64,000 nt of DNA from a virus (lineage: Duplodnaviria > Caudoviricetes). This document shows positions 3,662 to 18,748 of this stretch, piece after piece (within the stretch, counting starts at the first letter, position 1; every line of letters begins with the position of its first letter). The position numbers were made by a program, and so were the translations under genes. The notes under the pieces were generated by a model. The model worked only from the letters and a program-made list of their open reading frames with translations, did no database searches and was not told the DNA's origin. The stretch covers positions 128,001-192,000 of IMG/VR virus record IMGVR_UViG_3300043177_000122, one strand, 5' to 3'.

Positions 3662-4574
3662 GCAAACTCTCCTCAATCAAATTTTCCACAGCATGATGTG
3701 CTGTTACAGTACTTACAGTGATTTTGGACGTATAATGAATAGTGTCTCTAAACTTATCTCCTAACCAAAAGGTATTCTCTTTTGCTGGTATCATATTAGA
3801 GAAGCAAACATGTTTTTTGGGCTTTCCGAATAAATTATCTTGAATAAAAGAGAATGTATAAGCGCCCGATGCCCTACCAACTATAACATCACAATACGTA
3901 CTAACAAATCCATTTTCATTTAAATCGAAACCATTTTTACCGATGATAGCCGATGAATATATAATGTTAGAATGTTGTGATTGGTTAAACTGACTTTCAT
4001 GATTGGTAAGTATAAATAGTTTATCTTGGTGCTTTGAAGCTAGGCTAATTACAATTGGTAATAGTGGGAAATTATCTGCCTGCCCCGAGAGTGCATTACC
4101 ATTTGCAATTAATACTTTCATTCCGGGTCTTTTTTCCAAAAAATCTTTTGCAGATCCAATATGATACTTAGTGAAATCTATTTGAGGAAACCACTTGGTA
4201 GGATCTGACTCAATTTCTGATAATGTGAAATTAAAATAGTTCTTGCAAATTTCATCAAACATAACATACAAGCAATCAAATGTGATTCCATATGTGTTCA
4301 TATAATAGAAGCGGCGCTGAGCATACCAAGTATTAATGAACATAGTATCTCCCCTTACAAACACTCCTTCATGTTCATGCCAGTTAAGCGGAATTACATT
4401 ATATCCTAAGTCAGGTATGTCGGCAATACAGTTAGAATTATTCTTATGAGAGTATGAAATATTTACATCTGGAAATCTATGTTTAAAAGCAAGAGATAGT
4501 TTTCTAACAAACTCTCTAGATACATGTATGTCTCCATTGTGAAAATGGTTATAGAAAACTATATTTTTATACAT
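3654..4574 (-). CDS. putative glycosyltransferase-like protein
   Basis: 306 aa; N-terminal HFHNGD motif and late VIVGRASG motif resemble GT-B enzymes; operon context. Confidence 0.45.
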   Translation of the reverse strand: MYKNIVFYNHFHNGDIHVSREFVRKLSLAFKHRFPDVNISYSHKNNSNCIADIPDLGYNVIPLNWHEHEGVFVRGDTMFINTWYAQRRFYYMNTYGITFDCLYVMFDEICKNYFNFTLSEIESDPTKWFPQIDFTKYHIGSAKDFLEKRPGMKVLIANGNALSGQADNFPLLPIVISLASKHQDKLFILTNHESQFNQSQHSNIIYSSAIIGKNGFDLNENGFVSTYCDVIVGRASGAYTFSFIQDNLFGKPKKHVCFSNMIPAKENTFWLGDKFRDTIHYTSKITVSTVTAHHAVENLIEESLHV

Positions 4575-13227: not shown

Positions 13228-13578
13228 GGGGATGACATAGATTCGACGTGGTTTCGAATTATCGAAATGATGCAAACAGAGGATGATTGCCCCTCCAAAA
13301 GTAATCAACGTATAAATGCAAACGATAATGCATTTGCAATGGCCGCCTGAGGGCACCATTCGTTCCTAGATAAGACTGCTTGAGTAATCAATGGAACGCC
13401 AACCCACAAAGCTGGTTGATGAATATGGCTACGATGTTCAACAACAAGATTAACAGTAGATAGCTAGCCGGAGCGAATTCTTGCAGCGTTGTTGATAACG
13501 CCAATATCAACTAAGTTTGTGAATGAGTTTTGATAAGGGCATATCGCGGACTCGGCTGCAATGCCGACATCTCCACCA
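13228..13578 (+). ncRNA. ssrA: tmRNA (SsrA), tag peptide ANDNAFAMAA*
   Basis: 5' GGGGATG...ATTCGAC, 3' CATCTCC-ACCA with G3:U70; tag frame GCA AAC GAT AAT GCA TTT GCA ATG GCC GCC TGA at 13318-13350. Confidence 0.93.
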
Positions 13579-13621: not shown

Positions 13622-14171
13622 ATGGAAAAGAAAATCATACTAAACTGCGCTCATTGTGGAGAATCATTTGAAAAAGAGGCTCGTGAGCATCGCCGACAAT
13701 TAAAAGAAGGAAAAGATGTTTTCTACTGCTCTCTTTCTTGCGTATGTAAAGAGCGAAATAAAAACAACCCTCCTAAAGGTAATGTAAAAAAATCTTCAAG
13801 CAGATAACCGAAGAGATGAGTACACTCAGTTTAGATGGTTTGTTAATCGTGGTAATTACAGAGGTAAGAGGAAGAGAAAATACGGATGCGATCTAACTGT
13901 AGAGTTTCTTAAAGAATTGTGGGATCAGCAAAAGGGCGTTTGCCCATTTACTGGATGGCAATTGATTCTACCACAAGATTCTTCTTATGCTTGGGATGAA
14001 AAGAACCCAGCTAATGCTTCTCTGGACAGAATAGATAATTCTAAGGGCTATATGCAGGGCAATGTTAGATTCATTTCAGTTATGGCCAATTTAGCAAGAC
14101 AAACATTTACAGACGAACAGGTTAGAAACTTTTGCAAAGCCGTGGTAACAAATGAAATGGCCACTTCGTGA
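13622..14171 (+). pseudogene. HNH/endonuclease-VII-like homing endonuclease split by one extra A
   Basis: CAHC and FYCSLSC N-terminus, CPFTG and ASLDRIDNSKGY..GNV C-terminus; frames join if A7 at 13786-13792 is A6. Confidence 0.75.
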
Positions 14172-14648: not shown

Positions 14649-14656
14649 GATATATA
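14649..14656 (+). promoter_or_regulatory. GATATAT motif 8 nt upstream of ATG 14664
   Basis: GATATATA-catcgtt-ATG, the same geometry as at 10759, 13607, 16523, 18838, 19319 and 8680(-). Confidence 0.6.
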
Positions 14657-14663
14657 CATCGTT

Positions 14664-15260
14664 ATGAGCTATCTATAGAACCATCTAATTAAGCAAATGA
14701 AAGAGTGTCCACAAACGGATACTCAATCTGTGTATGAACACGGTGTCTCTGTAAAAGAGCACATTTTTGAATTGATTTCATTTTTAAAAACAGGACAAGT
14801 GCCTGAAGGTTGGAGATTACCTGACTGGATGCATATGTATCGAGAGCAGATTCTAGCCTCGCTTCTTCTAGAGGATATCATCAAAGCCTACGCAGTCTTC
14901 CATGATTGTGGTAAACCTTATTGTCTAATAATAGATGATAAGGGCAGAAGACATTTTCCTGACCATCCAGAGATATCACACAACGTTTGGCTTGCTGTTA
15001 GCAATAACAAAACGATTGCTAAGTTAATTCTTATGGATATGAAAATTCATACTATGAAGGCAGCAGATGTTGAAGAATTCTGTCAGCATCAAGAAGCTAT
15101 CACTCTCCTCATTGCAGGATTAGCTGAAGTACATAGTAATGCAAAGATGTTTGGCGGCATTGATTCTGAATCCTTCAAAATCAAATGGAGTCAAATTAAC
15201 AAACGTGGCAAAGCAATTTGTCGTAAACTATTTGGAGAACATCATGTGTCTATAGGTTAA
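14664..15260 (+). CDS. HD-domain phosphohydrolase with in-frame TAG at codon 5
   Basis: ATG AGC TAT CTA TAG AAC CAT CTA ATT AAG CAA ATG... is in frame with track ORF 14697; EHG, FHDCGKP and later H residues typical of HD fold. Confidence 0.7.
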
Positions 15261-15594
15261 AGAAGGCGATAAGCTTTATGTTATTACTCGTGCAGATTTG
15301 GAACCGGGTTATCAAGCAGTGCAGAGTATGCATGCATTGAGACAATTTACGGCAGAGCATCCTGAGGTCGATAAGGCATGGTTTGAGCAATCAAACTATC
15401 TTGGACTTCTTTCGGTGCAGAATGAACAAGAACTCCTGCAGTTGTTAGAACAAGCAAACAACCAAGGGATTCAAGCTTCAGCTTTCCGAGAACCCGATAT
15501 TGATAATCAAATGACAGCCATTGCGTTATCACCTGGCCCTAAGTCTAAAAAGCTTTGTAGCCGTTTACCACTAGCATTAAGAGGTAAGCCATGA
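15244..15594 (+). CDS. Pth2-like (peptidyl-tRNA hydrolase II fold) protein with in-frame TAG at codon 4
   Basis: GGAG RBS then ATG TGT CTA TAG GTT AAA GAA GGC GAT AAG CTT TAT...; KLYVITRADL.PGYQAVQSMHA and FREPDIDNQMTAIA motifs. Confidence 0.75.
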
Positions 15595-15842
15595 GCAAAT
15601 GGATTGATAAAGAGCGTGGGCCCGAATGTTTCTGTGGCATGCCAACTGGAGTATATATTAGTGAAGATGGTAAGGCATGGTTAATGTGTATCTTTCATGA
15701 ATATGAAGCGGGAGCAATGTTCCCGCTCCCTAGAGATGGAAGACCTGATGCCTGGCCTGATATTCCTCGTGAAGAGATAAATGAGCTAATGAAACGAGGA
15801 GCAGAAGAAGATGAACAAGAACCTATTTCAGAAGATGGATAA
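15591..15842 (+). CDS. hypothetical protein (CxC...CxxH)
   Basis: 83 aa ORF, GAGG RBS, overlaps preceding stop. Confidence 0.6.
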   Translation: MSKWIDKERGPECFCGMPTGVYISEDGKAWLMCIFHEYEAGAMFPLPRDGRPDAWPDIPREEINELMKRGAEEDEQEPISEDG

Positions 15843-15996
15843 AAAAGAATACGATTACTGCTCATGTTCGGGCCATTGCTGTGACAAACCAGAGCGATTT
15901 TGCCCTGTTCACGTTTGCGAAGCAGAAAATTTCTGTGAAGAATGCTTTGTTTCAGAATGTGCTAATTGCCACAAATCATGTGCGTGTGACCTATGA
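15811..15996 (+). CDS. small Cys-rich protein
   Basis: 12 Cys in the last ~45 residues. Confidence 0.55.
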   Translation: MNKNLFQKMDKKEYDYCSCSGHCCDKPERFCPVHVCEAENFCEECFVSECANCHKSCACDL

Positions 15997-16346
15997 AAAA
16001 GACTAGTATAGCATCTTTGCAAGAACGTTTAACTGATTGGTTGCCATGGGATGAAGCTATGTATCAGGTTGGAGCTACTCTTGGTTTCTGGCCTGAGTTT
16101 GGCGCACCTCATGATAACGATCCGTGGCATGGCGTTAAAGACGTTATGCACACTAGAAAACATGAACCGCTAGGTGCTATACTGGAATGGTTTCTCAAAG
16201 ATTTGGTTGAAGTGGGTTGTCTTGAATCAAAAACAGTCGAACTTGAATTCGAATTTTCAAGTGGGAAAAAGACCACGATTCCAATCGCGCATTATCGTTG
16301 GAATGTAAAATATAAAGGACCGGCAGATTTAATATCAATGTTATAA
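15993..16346 (+). CDS. hypothetical protein
   Basis: 117 aa ORF, ATGA overlap. Confidence 0.6.
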   Translation: MKKTSIASLQERLTDWLPWDEAMYQVGATLGFWPEFGAPHDNDPWHGVKDVMHTRKHEPLGAILEWFLKDLVEVGCLESKTVELEFEFSSGKKTTIPIAHYRWNVKYKGPADLISML

Positions 16347-16352
16347 TGTAAT

Positions 16353-16426
16353 CCGCTCTTGGTATAGTGGCTGTGCCGTCGACTCTAAATCGACAGAGCC
16401 GTGTTCAAATCACGGAGAGCGGGCCA
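16353..16426 (+). tRNA. amber suppressor tRNA (CUA), copy 1
   Basis: CCGCTCT/AGAGCGG acceptor, G73, CCA; GTCGA-CTCTAAA-TCGAC (anticodon CTA 16385-87); CCGTG-TTCAAAT-CACGG. Confidence 0.88.
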
Positions 16427-16436
16427 AATAATATAT

Positions 16437-16508
16437 GCGCCGTTAGCTCAGTGGTAGAGCGGGAGCCTCTAAAACTCACGGTCGAGGGTTCAAATCCCTC
16501 ACGGCGCA
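16437..16508 (+). tRNA. amber suppressor tRNA (CUA), copy 2
   Basis: GCGCCGT/ACGGCGC acceptor, A73, CCA not encoded; GCTC-AGTGGTA-GAGC; loop CTCTAAA (CTA 16469-71) on a 3-bp stem; GAGGG-TTCAAAT-CCCTC. Confidence 0.8.
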
Positions 16509-16537
16509 CAAACTACTATTATGATATATAATCTAGC

Positions 16538-16727: not shown

Positions 16728-17240
16728 TCAAATTAGTGATTTCTTTCGCAATCGTTTACGAAGTGCTGGATCACTACATCCGAGTTTTTTTGAAACTGCA
16801 AATATGCTATTTTCAGCAATCATTTTTATGAGTGATTGATCATCTGGCCAATTAAATCTATCTTGGGTTGTTCGACAATGATTGCATAGCCCAGATACCG
16901 ACACTCTACTTCTATAATTTCCACATTTTTTGCAAGTATAATTTCCCGTTCGTTTTCTATTTATCGCATTACCACCAGCATAGTTTTCCGTTTGAGAGTG
17001 ACAGTTAGGGCAAAGAAATCTTAAATTCTCTATTCTATGATCTTTGTTATCTCCATTAATGTGATCAACTTGTAATGTAAGAATGTTTCCATTCCACTCT
17101 GGCCCTAATCCACAGATTGCGCATTTATATGGCAACAGATTGTACTTCAAGATTTTAGTTTTAAGATGTGATCTAGTAAAAGTAGAATTTTTTACTAATG
17201 CTTCCTCAATTGGGATTTCGTGGTCGCCTTTTTTATACAT
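16728..17240 (-). CDS. HNH homing endonuclease with C-terminal Zn ribbon and HTH
   Basis: CAICG, LQVDHINGD..DHRIENLRFLCPNCHSQT. Confidence 0.88.
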   Translation of the reverse strand: MYKKGDHEIPIEEALVKNSTFTRSHLKTKILKYNLLPYKCAICGLGPEWNGNILTLQVDHINGDNKDHRIENLRFLCPNCHSQTENYAGGNAINRKRTGNYTCKKCGNYRSRVSVSGLCNHCRTTQDRFNWPDDQSLIKMIAENSIFAVSKKLGCSDPALRKRLRKKSLI

Positions 17241-17832: not shown

Positions 17833-18222
17833 ATGCCTTCTAATACAGACGAATCTAAAAGATATTGGCTTTTAGAGGATCCTCGTAAAACCGGACTTAA
17901 GAATGGGTTACGACAATTAACAATTGAACAGTTACAAAGAGTTATCGATTATCAAGGTGAAATGGTTCTGGACAGCTATAATTATGAGGGTGGAAAATTT
18001 TGTCCTTTAACGATAGCGGTTGAACTAGATAAAACAATAATTAACCCAACACATGAAAAAGTTTTCGATGCCTTGACAAGTATGGGTTATAAAGTTTACA
18101 ATACTCGTGGGATTCCAGGCGAGTTTTACACAAATAATAGGCTGGAAGATTTGCTGGAAGCAGCAAAAGAAGTGTTACAGGAGAAAACAAATCAGAATGC
18201 AAACTGTAAATCAATCAAATAA
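17833..18222 (+). CDS. hypothetical protein
   Basis: ORF with GGTGG upstream of ATG 17833. Confidence 0.6.
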   Translation: MPSNTDESKRYWLLEDPRKTGLKNGLRQLTIEQLQRVIDYQGEMVLDSYNYEGGKFCPLTIAVELDKTIINPTHEKVFDALTSMGYKVYNTRGIPGEFYTNNRLEDLLEAAKEVLQEKTNQNANCKSIK

Positions 18223-18748
18223 TCAGCAGCGTGAATACCGTACTCGTATCAATAAATTCATTCGTGTTCCTCAAATTCGTGTAGTGCTTGCCGATGGTTC
18301 CAATGCCGGCATTATGAATACTTATGAGGCTTTGAAAATGGCACAAGACCAAGGACTTGATTTGGTGGAGATTAGTCCTAAGGCACAACCACCAGTCTGT
18401 AAAATTATGGACTATGGTAAATTTAAGTACGAAGAGAAGAAAAAGCTTCAAGCTGCTAAAAAGAATCAACAGATTCAAGAACTTAAGGAGCTAACTTTTC
18501 GACCCAACACTGATGAGAATGACCTAAAACATAAGCTTTCTCAAGCTAAAGAGTTCTTAGCTGATGGTGACAGGGTTAAATTTGCAGTACGTTTCCGTGG
18601 TCGTGAAATTGTCCATCAGGATATTGGTAAAGAGAAGTTAACTTGGATTCTTCAGGAATTGAATGGTTTAGTATCTCCTAATCCGCAAATTTCTTTAGAA
18701 GGAAAAATTATGTGGATGATTGTTTCTCCTACTAAACAAAAGTCATAA
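18197..18748 (+). CDS. infC: translation initiation factor IF-3
   Basis: RIN..IRVPQIRVV, DLVEISPKAQPPVCKIMDYGKFKYE, FL.DGDRVK..VRFRGRE. Confidence 0.95.
   Translation: MQTVNQSNNQQREYRTRINKFIRVPQIRVVLADGSNAGIMNTYEALKMAQDQGLDLVEISPKAQPPVCKIMDYGKFKYEEKKKLQAAKKNQQIQELKELTFRPNTDENDLKHKLSQAKEFLADGDRVKFAVRFRGREIVHQDIGKEKLTWILQELNGLVSPNPQISLEGKIMWMIVSPTKQKS

What the first reader, a model, noticed from the sequence alone, without database searches (positions are those of the whole stretch)
16353..16508. Two tandem CUA-anticodon tRNAs with unrelated bodies
Seen: both have the identical loop CTCTAAA but different identity elements. Copy 1 has C1:G72, G73 and encoded CCA; copy 2 has G1:C72, A73, a Lys/Phe-like body, only 3 Watson-Crick pairs in the anticodon stem and no encoded CCA. 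Established: TAG-recoding phages (Lak megaphages, some crAss-like phages) carry CUA tRNAs and usually insert Gln. Inference: two independent origins of suppression, perhaps inserting different amino acids or acting at different times.
Basis: partly seen in the sequence, partly recalled or inferred. Interest (0 to 1): 0.8.

Follow-up and report, generated by a model that had tools for sequence, protein, structure and literature searches.

The report
Paired amber-suppressor tRNAs serving amber-gated genes
A 359-kb freshwater phage that otherwise uses the standard genetic code carries two different tRNAs that read the UAG stop codon, and their likely job is to read a conserved UAG placed 3-5 codons into two neighbouring tRNA-repair genes, a link that recurs across many huge phages.

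Summary
The phage is not TAG-recoded. Coding density is the same under code 11 and with TAG as sense, TAG ends about 5% of ORFs genome-wide and 0 of 86 in the window, and no release-factor gene was found.

The tRNAs end a tightly packed gene run. Its first two genes, an HD-domain protein and a Pth2 peptidyl-tRNA hydrolase, each begin ATG, 2-3 codons, TAG. Conserved residues follow directly, with no usable start codon before them.

Among 71 non-redundant IMG/VR Pth2 loci, 38 carry this amber gate. A same-strand tRNA(CUA) lies within 5 kb in 33 of those 38, against 5 of 33 ungated loci. The gate also occurs in published huge phages, including the 735-kb genome.

Where two CUA tRNAs occur, 9 of 10 distinct loci pair a G73 tRNA with an A73 tRNA, as does Xanthomonas phage XacN1. 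This suggests two charging identities.

Best reading: dedicated dual-identity suppressors that open an amber gate on tRNA-salvage genes. Charging, the inserted residues and expression are untested.

The amber-gate lead came from an earlier scan note on this genome; I tested it here.

The parts
16353..16426 (+). tRNA(CUA) copy 1: C1:G72, G73, CCA encoded, 4-nt variable loop, A31:U39, loop CUCUAAA
   Evidence: ARAGORN; Rfam 47.2 bits. Orthologues in L001 and L006-8 carry compensatory changes in the acceptor, anticodon and T stems. The D-arm equals that of a phage tRNA-Gly(UCC) family.
16427..16436 (+). 10-nt spacer AATAATATAT between the two tRNAs
   Evidence: Sequence; identical in the nearest relative L001. 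Too short to hold a promoter.
16437..16509 (+). tRNA(CUA) copy 2: G1:C72, A73, no encoded CCA, anticodon stem with G27.A43 and C31.A39 mismatches
   Evidence: ARAGORN; Rfam 65.7 bits. The same stem architecture is kept, with compensatory changes in the middle three pairs, in L001, L014, XacN1 and RAS14.
14664..15260 (+). HD-domain gene with in-frame TAG at codon 5 (14676-14678); the likely first client of the suppressors
   Evidence: ATG 14664 lies 7 nt after a GATATATA motif, the same spacing as at other gene starts. ATG + 1-4 codons + TAG is kept in 10 of 13 non-redundant relatives. The residues between the TAG and Met12 are conserved with synonymous variation; I9 is invariant. The AF2 model has pLDDT 93 and its helix 3-14 includes the TAG position. 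The best PDB fold is the class-II tRNA nucleotidyltransferase 3WFO-3WFS.
15244..15594 (+). Pth2-type peptidyl-tRNA hydrolase gene with in-frame TAG at codon 4 (15253-15255); the likely second client
   Evidence: GGAGA-N5-ATG 15244. Pfam PTH2 matches residues 10-102 to profile positions 2-104 of 115, at 33.8 bits against a cut-off of 23. The first table-11 start (TTG 15298) is residue 19 and would delete the first conserved strand. The gate is conserved in relatives.
14649..14656 (+). GATATATA promoter-like motif 7 nt before the HD gene's ATG; a second copy at 16523-16530 opens the next unit after the tRNAs
   Evidence: The genome has 26 copies on the + strand and 3 on the - strand; 11 have an ATG 4-9 nt downstream. 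Conserved in relatives before the HD gene and after the tRNAs.
15591..16346 (+). Three small overlapping ORFs (15591-15842, 15835-15996 Cys-rich, 15993-16346) that fill the space between Pth2 and the tRNAs
   Evidence: ORF list and sequence. No Pfam hit for the two I scanned (15591-15842 and 15993-16346); the Cys-rich ORF was not scanned. Overlapping stops and starts, and no terminator-like site on the + strand between them, suggest one transcription unit. This is an inference.

Best explanation
The two genes encode functional amber-suppressor tRNAs in a phage that otherwise uses the standard code. They sit at the 3' end of a compact unit: GATATATA motif, HD-domain gene, Pth2 gene, three small ORFs, tRNA, tRNA. 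The first two genes each start with ATG, 2-3 sense codons and then UAG, directly followed by the conserved body of the protein. Without a charged CUA tRNA, ribosomes would stop after a 3-4-residue peptide. With it, full-length HD protein (a fold like the tRNA 3'-end-repair part of CCA-adding enzymes) and Pth2 would be made. On this reading the tRNAs act as the key to an 'amber gate' that ties production of two tRNA-salvage enzymes to the presence of matured, charged phage suppressor tRNA in competition with host RF1. The gated codon lies in a non-conserved N-terminal tail, so any inserted residue would do. That would explain why the tRNA bodies turn over freely in the clade. The two tRNAs differ consistently at the discriminator (G73 versus A73), so they are probably charged by two different synthetases: by elimination Gln, Glu or Trp for G73 and Lys for A73. 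This would give redundancy across hosts or conditions. Shown here: the tRNA genes, their covariation, the conserved gates, and the gate-tRNA co-occurrence. Inferred: co-transcription, charging, the inserted residues, and the regulatory purpose.
For: 1. The tRNAs are real and under selection.
2. There is no bulk recoding. ORF coverage is 0.886 under code 11 and 0.883 with TAG as sense. Stop use is TAA 247, TGA 133, TAG 22 in the genome and 54, 32, 0 in the window. Only spurious or ordinary cases turned up in the internal-TAG scan.
3. Pth2 needs the readthrough. The Pfam domain starts at residue 10 and no ATG, GTG or TTG lies between the TAG and residue 19.
4. The HD N-terminus upstream of Met12 is conserved as protein and is modelled as part of a helix.
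5. In 13 relatives, an ATG lies 1-5 codons before the upstream bounding stop in 24 of 62 cases for TAG, 7 of 82 for TGA and 4 of 101 for TAA.
6. Among 71 non-redundant Pth2 loci, 38 are gated. Of these, 33 of 38 have a same-strand tRNA(CUA) within 5 kb, against 5 of 33 ungated loci (Fisher 7e-10, uncorrected for phylogeny). The mini-ORF design never uses TAA or TGA. The base after the TAG is a purine in 37 of 38.
7. The gate also occurs in GenBank huge phages LR756500, LR756501 and LR756504.
8. Homologues without a TAG have their ATG exactly at the TAG position.
9. G73 pairs with A73 in 9 of 10 distinct two-tRNA loci and in XacN1.
10. The phage has its own CCA-adding-family genes that could finish copy 2.
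Against: The co-occurrence test is not phylogenetically corrected. Five gated loci lack a CUA tRNA within 5 kb, and some ungated loci have one. For Pth2 the codon after the TAG is AUU, AUA or AUC in 24 of 38 gates, which leaves room for reinitiation at a weak start. For HD, a shorter product from Met12 could still work. A gate whose key is encoded in the same transcription unit has no obvious regulatory input. The record is only about 83% complete, so other clients, or a release factor, could lie in the missing part.
Confidence: 0.68

Rival explanations
1. The tRNAs mainly act globally. They read through host (and the few phage) UAG stops to damage or reprogramme host translation, or to make C-terminally extended phage proteins. 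The gates on Pth2 and HD are only a secondary sensor that switches on clean-up enzymes when readthrough is active.
For: TAG is rare as a phage stop (0 of 86 in the window, 22 of 402 in the genome), as expected if readthrough is costly. A phage tmRNA lies 3 kb upstream and Pth2 is a ribosome-rescue or recycling enzyme. Pth2 genes also sit beside UUA- and UCA-anticodon suppressor tRNAs in other huge phages without a gate. RNase HII ends in TAG and is in frame with the next ORF.
Against: Readthrough extensions of the 22 TAG-ended ORFs are short and look random. The XacN1 authors found no meaningful extensions either (PMC5852040). This reading does not by itself explain why the gates are so conserved.
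Confidence: 0.15
2. ATG-x-x-TAG is a small leader ORF that senses RF1, and the proteins are made by reinitiation just after it (AUU/AUA/AUC for Pth2, Met12 for HD). The CUA tRNAs are neighbours for another reason.
For: The codon after the TAG is AUU, AUA or AUC in 24 of 38 Pth2 gates. A phage IF3 gene, whose product would govern the use of such starts, lies 1.6 kb downstream of the tRNAs. UAG is the only stop read by RF1 alone (established knowledge).
Against: GTT, GTA, AAC and similar codons follow the TAG in the other Pth2 gates, and AAC or AAT follows it in HD; none is a start codon. The Ile or Val after the gate is simply the conserved second residue of ungated homologues. This reading does not explain the 87% versus 15% co-occurrence with tRNA(CUA).
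Confidence: 0.08
3. The phage is a TAG-recoded (code 15-like) phage whose recoded late genes lie outside the window or in the missing 17% of the genome, as in Lak or crAss-like phages.
For: It has suppressor tRNAs, TAG is rare as a stop, and the record is incomplete. The published model predicts such intermediates (10.1101/2021.08.26.457843).
Against: The whole 359-kb record, including the head and tail gene regions, gains no coding coverage with TAG as sense. No gene has internal TAGs flanked by coding signal on both sides, apart from artefacts. No RF-1 domain gene (the domain common to RF1 and RF2) was found.
Confidence: 0.05
4. One or both genes are non-functional relics or decoys that are not charged; for example, copy 2 has a weak anticodon stem and no CCA.
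For: Copy 2 has only 3 Watson-Crick pairs in its anticodon stem and lacks CCA. Neither body matches any isotype clearly.
Against: Both types are kept in relatives with compensatory changes. The odd stem (C31.A39) is itself conserved in distant phages. About two thirds of the clade's CUA tRNAs lack an encoded CCA (32 of 49), and the phage encodes CCA-adding-family enzymes.
Confidence: 0.04

Closest known systems
Tandem tRNA-Sup(CUA) pair of Xanthomonas jumbo phage XacN1 (PMC5852040), and tRNA-Sup-CTA of Stenotrophomonas phage RAS14
   Same: A standard-code jumbo phage with a very large tRNA set and two adjacent CUA tRNAs. Copy 2 is 82% identical to XacN1 sup1 and shares its anticodon stem with the C31.A39 mismatch. 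The XacN1 pair also differs in acceptor stem and discriminator, A73 versus G73.
   Different: The XacN1 authors found no client genes by reading through 3'-terminal ambers. Its suppressors are not next to HD or Pth2 homologues. Here, conserved clients with a 5'-proximal amber lie in the same gene run, and the two bodies are unrelated rather than sharing a core.
TAG-recoded phages with suppressor tRNAs (Lak megaphages, crAss-like and other gut phages; 10.1101/2021.08.26.457843)
   Same: A phage-encoded tRNA(CUA), depletion of TAG as a stop, and the idea that in-frame stops gate the expression of particular genes until the suppressor is made.
   Different: In those phages many in-frame TAGs are spread through late structural and lysis genes, coding density rises under code 15, and RF2 is sometimes present. 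Here there are only two gated genes, each with one TAG at codon 4-5, both tRNA-salvage enzymes, and no release factor was found.
Classical E. coli amber suppressors (supE tRNA-Gln CUA, Su7 tRNA-Trp CUA, supF tRNA-Tyr CUA) and their context rules (own knowledge)
   Same: A CUA anticodon in a C32-U33-CUA-A37-A38 loop. Copy 1 has the A31:U39 closing pair of efficient suppressors. A purine after the UAG, which favours suppression, is found at 37 of 38 gates.
   Different: Those are single-base mutants of cellular tRNAs. These are conserved wild-type phage genes whose bodies match no isotype, with remodelled acceptor ends.
Lambda bar minigenes, early peptidyl-tRNA drop-off and Pth (background: PMC10192219; minigene literature from own knowledge)
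   Same: A 3-5-codon ORF ending in a stop is the classical source of peptidyl-tRNA drop-off that Pth must clear. Here such a mini-ORF precedes a peptidyl-tRNA hydrolase gene.
   Different: In those cases the mini-ORF is not fused in frame to the hydrolase and no dedicated suppressor tRNA is involved. Whether drop-off plays any part here is untested.
Synthetic amber-gated gene expression with orthogonal suppressor tRNAs (own knowledge)
   Same: An amber codon placed near the N-terminus makes protein output depend on a supplied suppressor tRNA at minimal cost when the gate is closed.
   Different: This is a natural system. The charging enzymes are unknown, and the key and lock appear to be co-transcribed.

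Membership tests
Phage-encoded amber suppressor tRNA (tRNA-Sup-CUA) | Canonical cloverleaf tRNA gene | tested here: met
   Rfam RF00005 47.2 and 65.7 bits; ARAGORN; covariation on 18 relatives.
Phage-encoded amber suppressor tRNA (tRNA-Sup-CUA) | Anticodon CUA in a 7-nt loop with U33 and a purine at position 37 | tested here: met
   Both loops read C-U-CUA-A-A.
Phage-encoded amber suppressor tRNA (tRNA-Sup-CUA) | In-frame UAG codons in phage genes that need decoding | tested here: met
   HD codon 5 and Pth2 codon 4, conserved and co-occurring with tRNA(CUA).
Phage-encoded amber suppressor tRNA (tRNA-Sup-CUA) | Aminoacylation and suppression in vivo | not testable with these tools
TAG-recoded phage (code 15 type: Lak, crAss-like) | Many in-frame TAGs in genes; coding density rises when TAG is read as sense | tested here: not met
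   Coverage 0.886 versus 0.883; no long gene in the window contains a TAG; the internal-TAG scan found only artefacts or true stops.
TAG-recoded phage (code 15 type: Lak, crAss-like) | Phage release factor (RF2) or a matching synthetase in a code-change module | tested here: not met
   No PF00472 and no PF00749 match in the record. TrpRS and TyrRS are present but lie about 50 kb away. The record is about 83% complete.
tRNA-Pyl (ARAGORN's label for any CUA tRNA) | Pyl-type anatomy: 6-bp anticodon stem, 3-nt variable loop, tiny D-loop without G18G19 | tested here: not met
   Both have 5-position anticodon stems, 4- or 5-nt variable loops and a GG in the D-loop. pylS and pylBCD were not searched.
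Initiator-type tRNA reading UAG as a start | C1xA72 mismatch and three consecutive G:C pairs closing the anticodon stem | tested here: not met
   Copy 1 has paired C1:G72 and the stem GUCGA/UCGAC; copy 2 has G1:C72 and only two G:C pairs. The Shine-Dalgarno sequence is spaced for the upstream ATG, not the TAG.
XacN1-type dual suppressor pair | Two CUA tRNAs in one locus that differ in acceptor stem and discriminator (G73 versus A73) | tested here: met
   Window copies have G73 and A73; 9 of 10 distinct two-tRNA loci and XacN1 show the same pairing.
tRNA-Gly(UCC) (ancestry of the copy 1 body) | Gly identity set U73, G1:C72, C35, C36 (own knowledge of E. coli GlyRS) | tested here: not met
   The D-arm is identical to that of phage tRNA-Gly(UCC), but copy 1 has G73, C1:G72 and anticodon CUA. 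It shares the body but is not a Gly acceptor by these rules.

The most novel reading that the evidence does not exclude
Huge phages carry a conserved, self-contained translational switch. One or two suppressor tRNAs of deliberately different charging identity (G73 type plus A73 type) open a UAG gate placed where the ancestral start codon used to be in a Pth2 peptidyl-tRNA hydrolase gene, and in this clade also in an HD tRNA-end-repair gene. This would tie tRNA-salvage capacity to the state of the phage's own tRNA supply and to host RF1 activity. It would be a natural counterpart of engineered amber-gated expression, and an answer to why standard-code jumbo phages keep 'orphan' amber suppressors.
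Probability: 0.45. Interest if true: 0.85.

Novelty: new variant of a known kind. Interest (0 to 1): 0.74.

Why it matters
Amber-suppressor tRNAs in phages that use the standard code have been a loose end. For XacN1 the authors explicitly could not find what their two CUA tRNAs read. This locus points to an answer that looking at gene ends would miss: a single UAG 3-5 codons after the start of specific genes. That UAG is conserved across dozens of huge-phage lineages and statistically tied to a nearby tRNA(CUA).

If confirmed, three things follow:
- It would be a minimal, natural form of stop-codon gating, distinct from whole-genome or late-gene recoding.
- It would explain mis-annotated, N-terminally truncated Pth2 genes in huge-phage genomes.
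- It would give synthetic biology naturally evolved suppressor tRNAs with two different acceptor identities.

It also gives the 'rare stop, then suppressor, then recoding' model a concrete intermediate to test.

Tried and rejected
- **Close relatives in GenBank phages:** megablast of 6 kb around the tRNAs found nothing. The DnaE-type polymerase is at most about 31-34% identical to anything in that collection.
- **E. coli tRNA comparison:** copy 1 has no match. Copy 2 gives only weak matches to tRNA-Lys and tRNA-Ile at 74-78%.
- **Isotype by nearest neighbours:** a comparison against 438 phage tRNAs with the anticodon masked was uninformative for both copies, and biased toward Gly for copy 1 by the way those loci were fetched.
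- **Genome-wide search for further early-amber genes:** the frequency of an upstream ATG is the same for TAG, TAA and TGA bounding stops, and the other candidates were wrong frames or had normal starts. In this genome the gate seems limited to HD and Pth2.
- **Internal in-frame TAGs:** the four candidates were an antisense frame, a true stop of RNase HII, and one unresolved ORF pair at genome 15725-16288.
- **A promoter directly before copy 1:** TGTTATAAT occurs there but is not conserved in the nearest relative, so I dropped it. The sigma-70 and terminator scan did not exceed the shuffle controls.
- **Phage 'lacks tRNA-Trp':** ARAGORN finds none, but Infernal finds a weak CCA-anticodon tRNA-like gene at genome 42629-42699, so I make no claim.
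- **XacN1 and RAS14:** no HD or Pth2 homologue lies beside their suppressors.
- **CUA tRNAs elsewhere in gated records:** one was found for L015's record; none for L012's (56% complete) or LR756504 with one loop pattern.

Full report
**The observation.** The window holds two tRNA genes with anticodon CUA at 16353-16426 and 16437-16509 on the + strand (ARAGORN). Rfam's tRNA model scores them 47.2 and 65.7 bits against a gathering score of 29.
- Both anticodon loops read CTCTAAA.
- Copy 1 has C1:G72, G73, an encoded CCA, a perfect anticodon stem (GUCGA/UCGAC) and a 4-nt variable loop.
- Copy 2 has G1:C72, A73 and no CCA. Its anticodon stem is G27.A43, G:C, A:U, G:C, C31.A39.
- The two bodies are 58% identical and lie 10 nt apart.

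**The genome.** The window is bases 128001-192000 of a single 358,993-bp virus record, which CheckV rates as about 83% complete. The record carries 57 tRNA genes by ARAGORN and by Infernal. In the window it also carries a tmRNA (104 bits) and an IF3 gene. Elsewhere it carries TrpRS and TyrRS and two CCA-adding-family genes. It has no close relative among GenBank phages. Earlier scan notes describe it as an uncultivated freshwater huge phage.

**It is not a recoded phage.**
- In the window, 86 non-overlapping ORFs end in TAA (54) or TGA (32) and none ends in TAG. No long ORF changes when TAG is read as sense.
- Genome-wide, stop use is TAA 247, TGA 133, TAG 22. ORF coverage is 0.886 under table 11 and 0.883 with TAG as sense.
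- Readthrough of the 22 TAG-ended ORFs gives short, random-looking tails.
- A scan for internal TAGs flanked by coding signal found one antisense artefact, the true stop of RNase HII, and one unresolved pair of small ORFs.
- No RF-1 domain gene and no GlnRS/GluRS-type gene is present.

**What the tRNAs read.** An earlier first-stage note (e1-5392212) pointed to two TAGs just upstream, and I tested it.
- The HD-domain gene begins GATATATA-N7-ATG AGC TAT CTA TAG AAC... at 14664.
- The Pth2 gene begins GGAGA-N5-ATG TGT CTA TAG GTT AAA... at 15244.
- For Pth2 the case is direct. Pfam PTH2 aligns residues 10-102 to profile positions 2-104 (33.8 bits, cut-off 23). The first table-11 start, TTG 15298, is residue 19, so without readthrough the first conserved strand (KLYVITRADL) cannot be made.
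- For HD, the residues between the TAG and Met12 (N-x-L-I-x-D/Q-M) are conserved with synonymous codon changes, and I9 is invariant. An AlphaFold model (pLDDT 93.2) places residues 3-14 in a helix. The ATG sits at the same 7-nt distance from GATATATA as at other gene starts; that motif occurs 26 times on the + strand and 3 times on the - strand.
- The HD model's best PDB matches are class-II tRNA nucleotidyltransferase structures 3WFO-3WFS (probability 1.0, TM about 0.6). That fits a role at tRNA 3' ends, as does Pth2.

**Conservation of the module.**
- Sixteen IMG/VR loci found with the HD protein (38-88% identity) mostly keep the order tRNA-Thr cluster, tmRNA, HD, Pth2, tRNA(CUA), tRNA-Arg(CCU). 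Fourteen have at least one CUA tRNA and five have two.
- The HD gate (ATG + 1-4 codons + TAG) is present in 10 of 13 non-redundant relatives, and the Pth2 gate in 9.
- Homologues without a TAG have their ATG exactly where the others have the TAG.
- In these loci, an ATG lies 1-5 codons before the upstream bounding stop of a long ORF in 24 of 62 cases for TAG, 7 of 82 for TGA and 4 of 101 for TAA.

**Wider distribution.**
- A profile of the Pth2 domain retrieved 80 more IMG/VR loci, of which 71 are non-redundant.
- 38 of the 71 have the gate. 33 of those 38 have a same-strand tRNA(CUA) within 5 kb, mostly 12-2300 nt downstream. Only 5 of 33 ungated loci have one (Fisher 7e-10, not corrected for shared ancestry).
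- The mini-ORF-plus-stop design never uses TAA or TGA, although TAA is by far the commonest stop in these AT-rich genomes.
- The base after the TAG is A in 29 gates, G in 8 and C in 1.
- The gate is also present in published huge phages LR756500 (462 kb), LR756501 (735 kb, with two CUA tRNAs 2 kb downstream) and LR756504 (636 kb).
- An ungated Pth2 in LR745208 sits 80 nt from a UUA-anticodon tRNA.

**The tRNAs themselves.**
- On 18 syntenic CUA tRNAs, the cloverleaf pairs in 95.7% of cells. 18 of 21 pairs change on both sides, and no shuffle or slid control comes close.
- Copy 1 has orthologues in L001 and L006-8 with compensatory changes in three stems. Its 18-nt D-arm matches exactly 35 IMG/VR sites, 29 of them tRNA-Gly(UCC) genes with GCGGG...U73 acceptor ends. 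It matches only 7 sites in 185,579 bacterial and archaeal species genomes. It therefore looks like a phage Gly-type body whose acceptor end was remodelled to C1:G72 and G73.
- In other relatives the same slot is filled by a different body with U1:A72 and G73.
- Copy 2 belongs to a family that includes XacN1 sup1 (82%) and RAS14's tRNA-Sup. The C31.A39 mismatch and a mismatched 27:43 pair recur in that family while the three middle pairs covary. The 'weak' stem is thus a conserved trait.
- Among 10 distinct loci with two CUA tRNAs, 9 combine G73 with A73. XacN1's two suppressors share a core but differ in acceptor stem and in A73 versus G73.
- Overall body similarity assigns no isotype.
- By elimination from established bacterial identity rules (own knowledge): among class-I-shaped tRNAs one anticodon change away from CUA, G73 fits Gln, Glu or Trp and A73 fits Lys. 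This is inference only.

**Mechanism I commit to.** The two tRNAs are the key to an amber gate.
- The unit from the GATATATA motif at 14649 to the next one at 16523 is tightly packed, with overlapping stops and starts and no terminator-like site on the + strand. The mRNA and the tRNAs are therefore probably co-transcribed (inference).
- Once the tRNAs are processed (an earlier scan note reports a phage RNase P RNA, which I did not check; copy 2 needs CCA addition) and charged, they compete with host RF1 at codon 4-5. That allows synthesis of HD and Pth2.
- A failed attempt costs only a tri- or tetrapeptide.
- Because the gated position lies in a non-conserved N-terminal tail, any amino acid is tolerated. 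That would explain the free replacement of tRNA bodies in the clade and the use of two charging identities as redundancy.
- The purpose is the weakest part. One coherent idea is that suppressor activity causes readthrough and stalled ribosomes, and that the phage couples its rescue and salvage enzymes (with tmRNA nearby) to that activity.

**Comparison with the literature.**
- The XacN1 paper reports two CUA suppressors in a standard-code jumbo phage and states that no target genes could be identified by reading through terminal ambers (PMC5852040).
- The stop-codon recoding survey describes suppressor acquisition by standard-code relatives and gating of late genes by many in-frame stops (10.1101/2021.08.26.457843).
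- A 2026 jumbo-phage survey treats suppressors only in the context of whole-genome recoding (PMC13037316).
- Three full-text searches found no description of a 5'-proximal amber in Pth2 or of G73/A73 suppressor pairs.
- I therefore class this as a new variant of a known kind.

**Limits.** Nothing here shows expression, charging or the inserted residue.

Noticed in passing
window 13228-13578 (+): A phage-encoded tmRNA (Rfam 104.2 bits) that ARAGORN missed in the window. Its tag reading frame gives ANDNAFAMAA and ends in TGA. Relatives have ANDNAFAMAA, ANDFAFAEAA and ANDNAAPMALAA, which are proteobacteria-like tags (the lineage comparison is from my own knowledge).
   Followed up: partly
window 18107-18748 (+): A phage-encoded translation initiation factor IF3, with both Pfam domains at 112 and 91 bits. 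The true start codon is unclear: the domain begins at residue 48 of the longest ORF, which overlaps the upstream ORF.
   Followed up: no
window 16728-17240 (-) and 13817-14171 (+): A minus-strand HNH endonuclease ORF (Pfam HNH hit) lies just downstream of the suppressor tRNAs. A second ORF between the tmRNA and the M23 peptidase gene also looked HNH-like on reading, but its Pfam scan returned no family.
   Followed up: no
window 14649, 13607 and 16523; genome-wide: The motif GATATATA occurs 26 times on the + strand and 3 times on the - strand. It is followed by an ATG after exactly 7 nt at most of 11 gene starts, which leaves no room for a Shine-Dalgarno sequence. This may be a phage promoter giving leaderless mRNAs.
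   Followed up: partly
genome C1:42629-42699 (outside the window): A weak (24.6 bits) tRNA-like gene with a CCA (Trp) anticodon, G73, a 3-nt D-loop and the same C31.A39 mismatch as copy 2. ARAGORN finds no tRNA-Trp although the phage encodes a TrpRS.
   Followed up: partly
genome C1:93525-96565 (L053, L054): Bacterial-type TrpRS (TIGR00233, 283 bits) and TyrRS (TIGR00234, 369 bits) genes lie beside a tRNA cluster. Whether either charges a CUA tRNA is unknown.
   Followed up: partly
L002:7710-7770, L014:7705-7764, L009:6993-7052: Directly upstream (2 nt) of the U1:A72/G73-type CUA tRNA lies a conserved tRNA-like element with a T-arm (GGGTGGTGCGAATCCACCC) and a closing stem but no D-arm. It may be a processing signal or a Y-RNA-like module.
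   Followed up: no
L059 (LR745208) 4411-4487; L135; L095: Other huge phages place UUA-anticodon (ochre-type) or UCA-anticodon (opal-type) tRNAs next to Pth2 genes. In L095 an amber-gated Pth2 has a UUA tRNA as its only nearby suppressor.
   Followed up: no
genome C1:49093-49686: The RNase HII gene ends in TAG and is in frame with the next 79-codon ORF, so suppression would make a fusion protein. It may be coincidence.
   Followed up: no
alignment A1, tRNA positions 31:39 and 27:43: Half of the clade's CUA tRNAs (9 of 18) have an unpaired 31:39 position, mostly C.A, and a third have an unpaired 27:43. This recurrent loosening of the anticodon stem has no explanation so far.
   Followed up: partly
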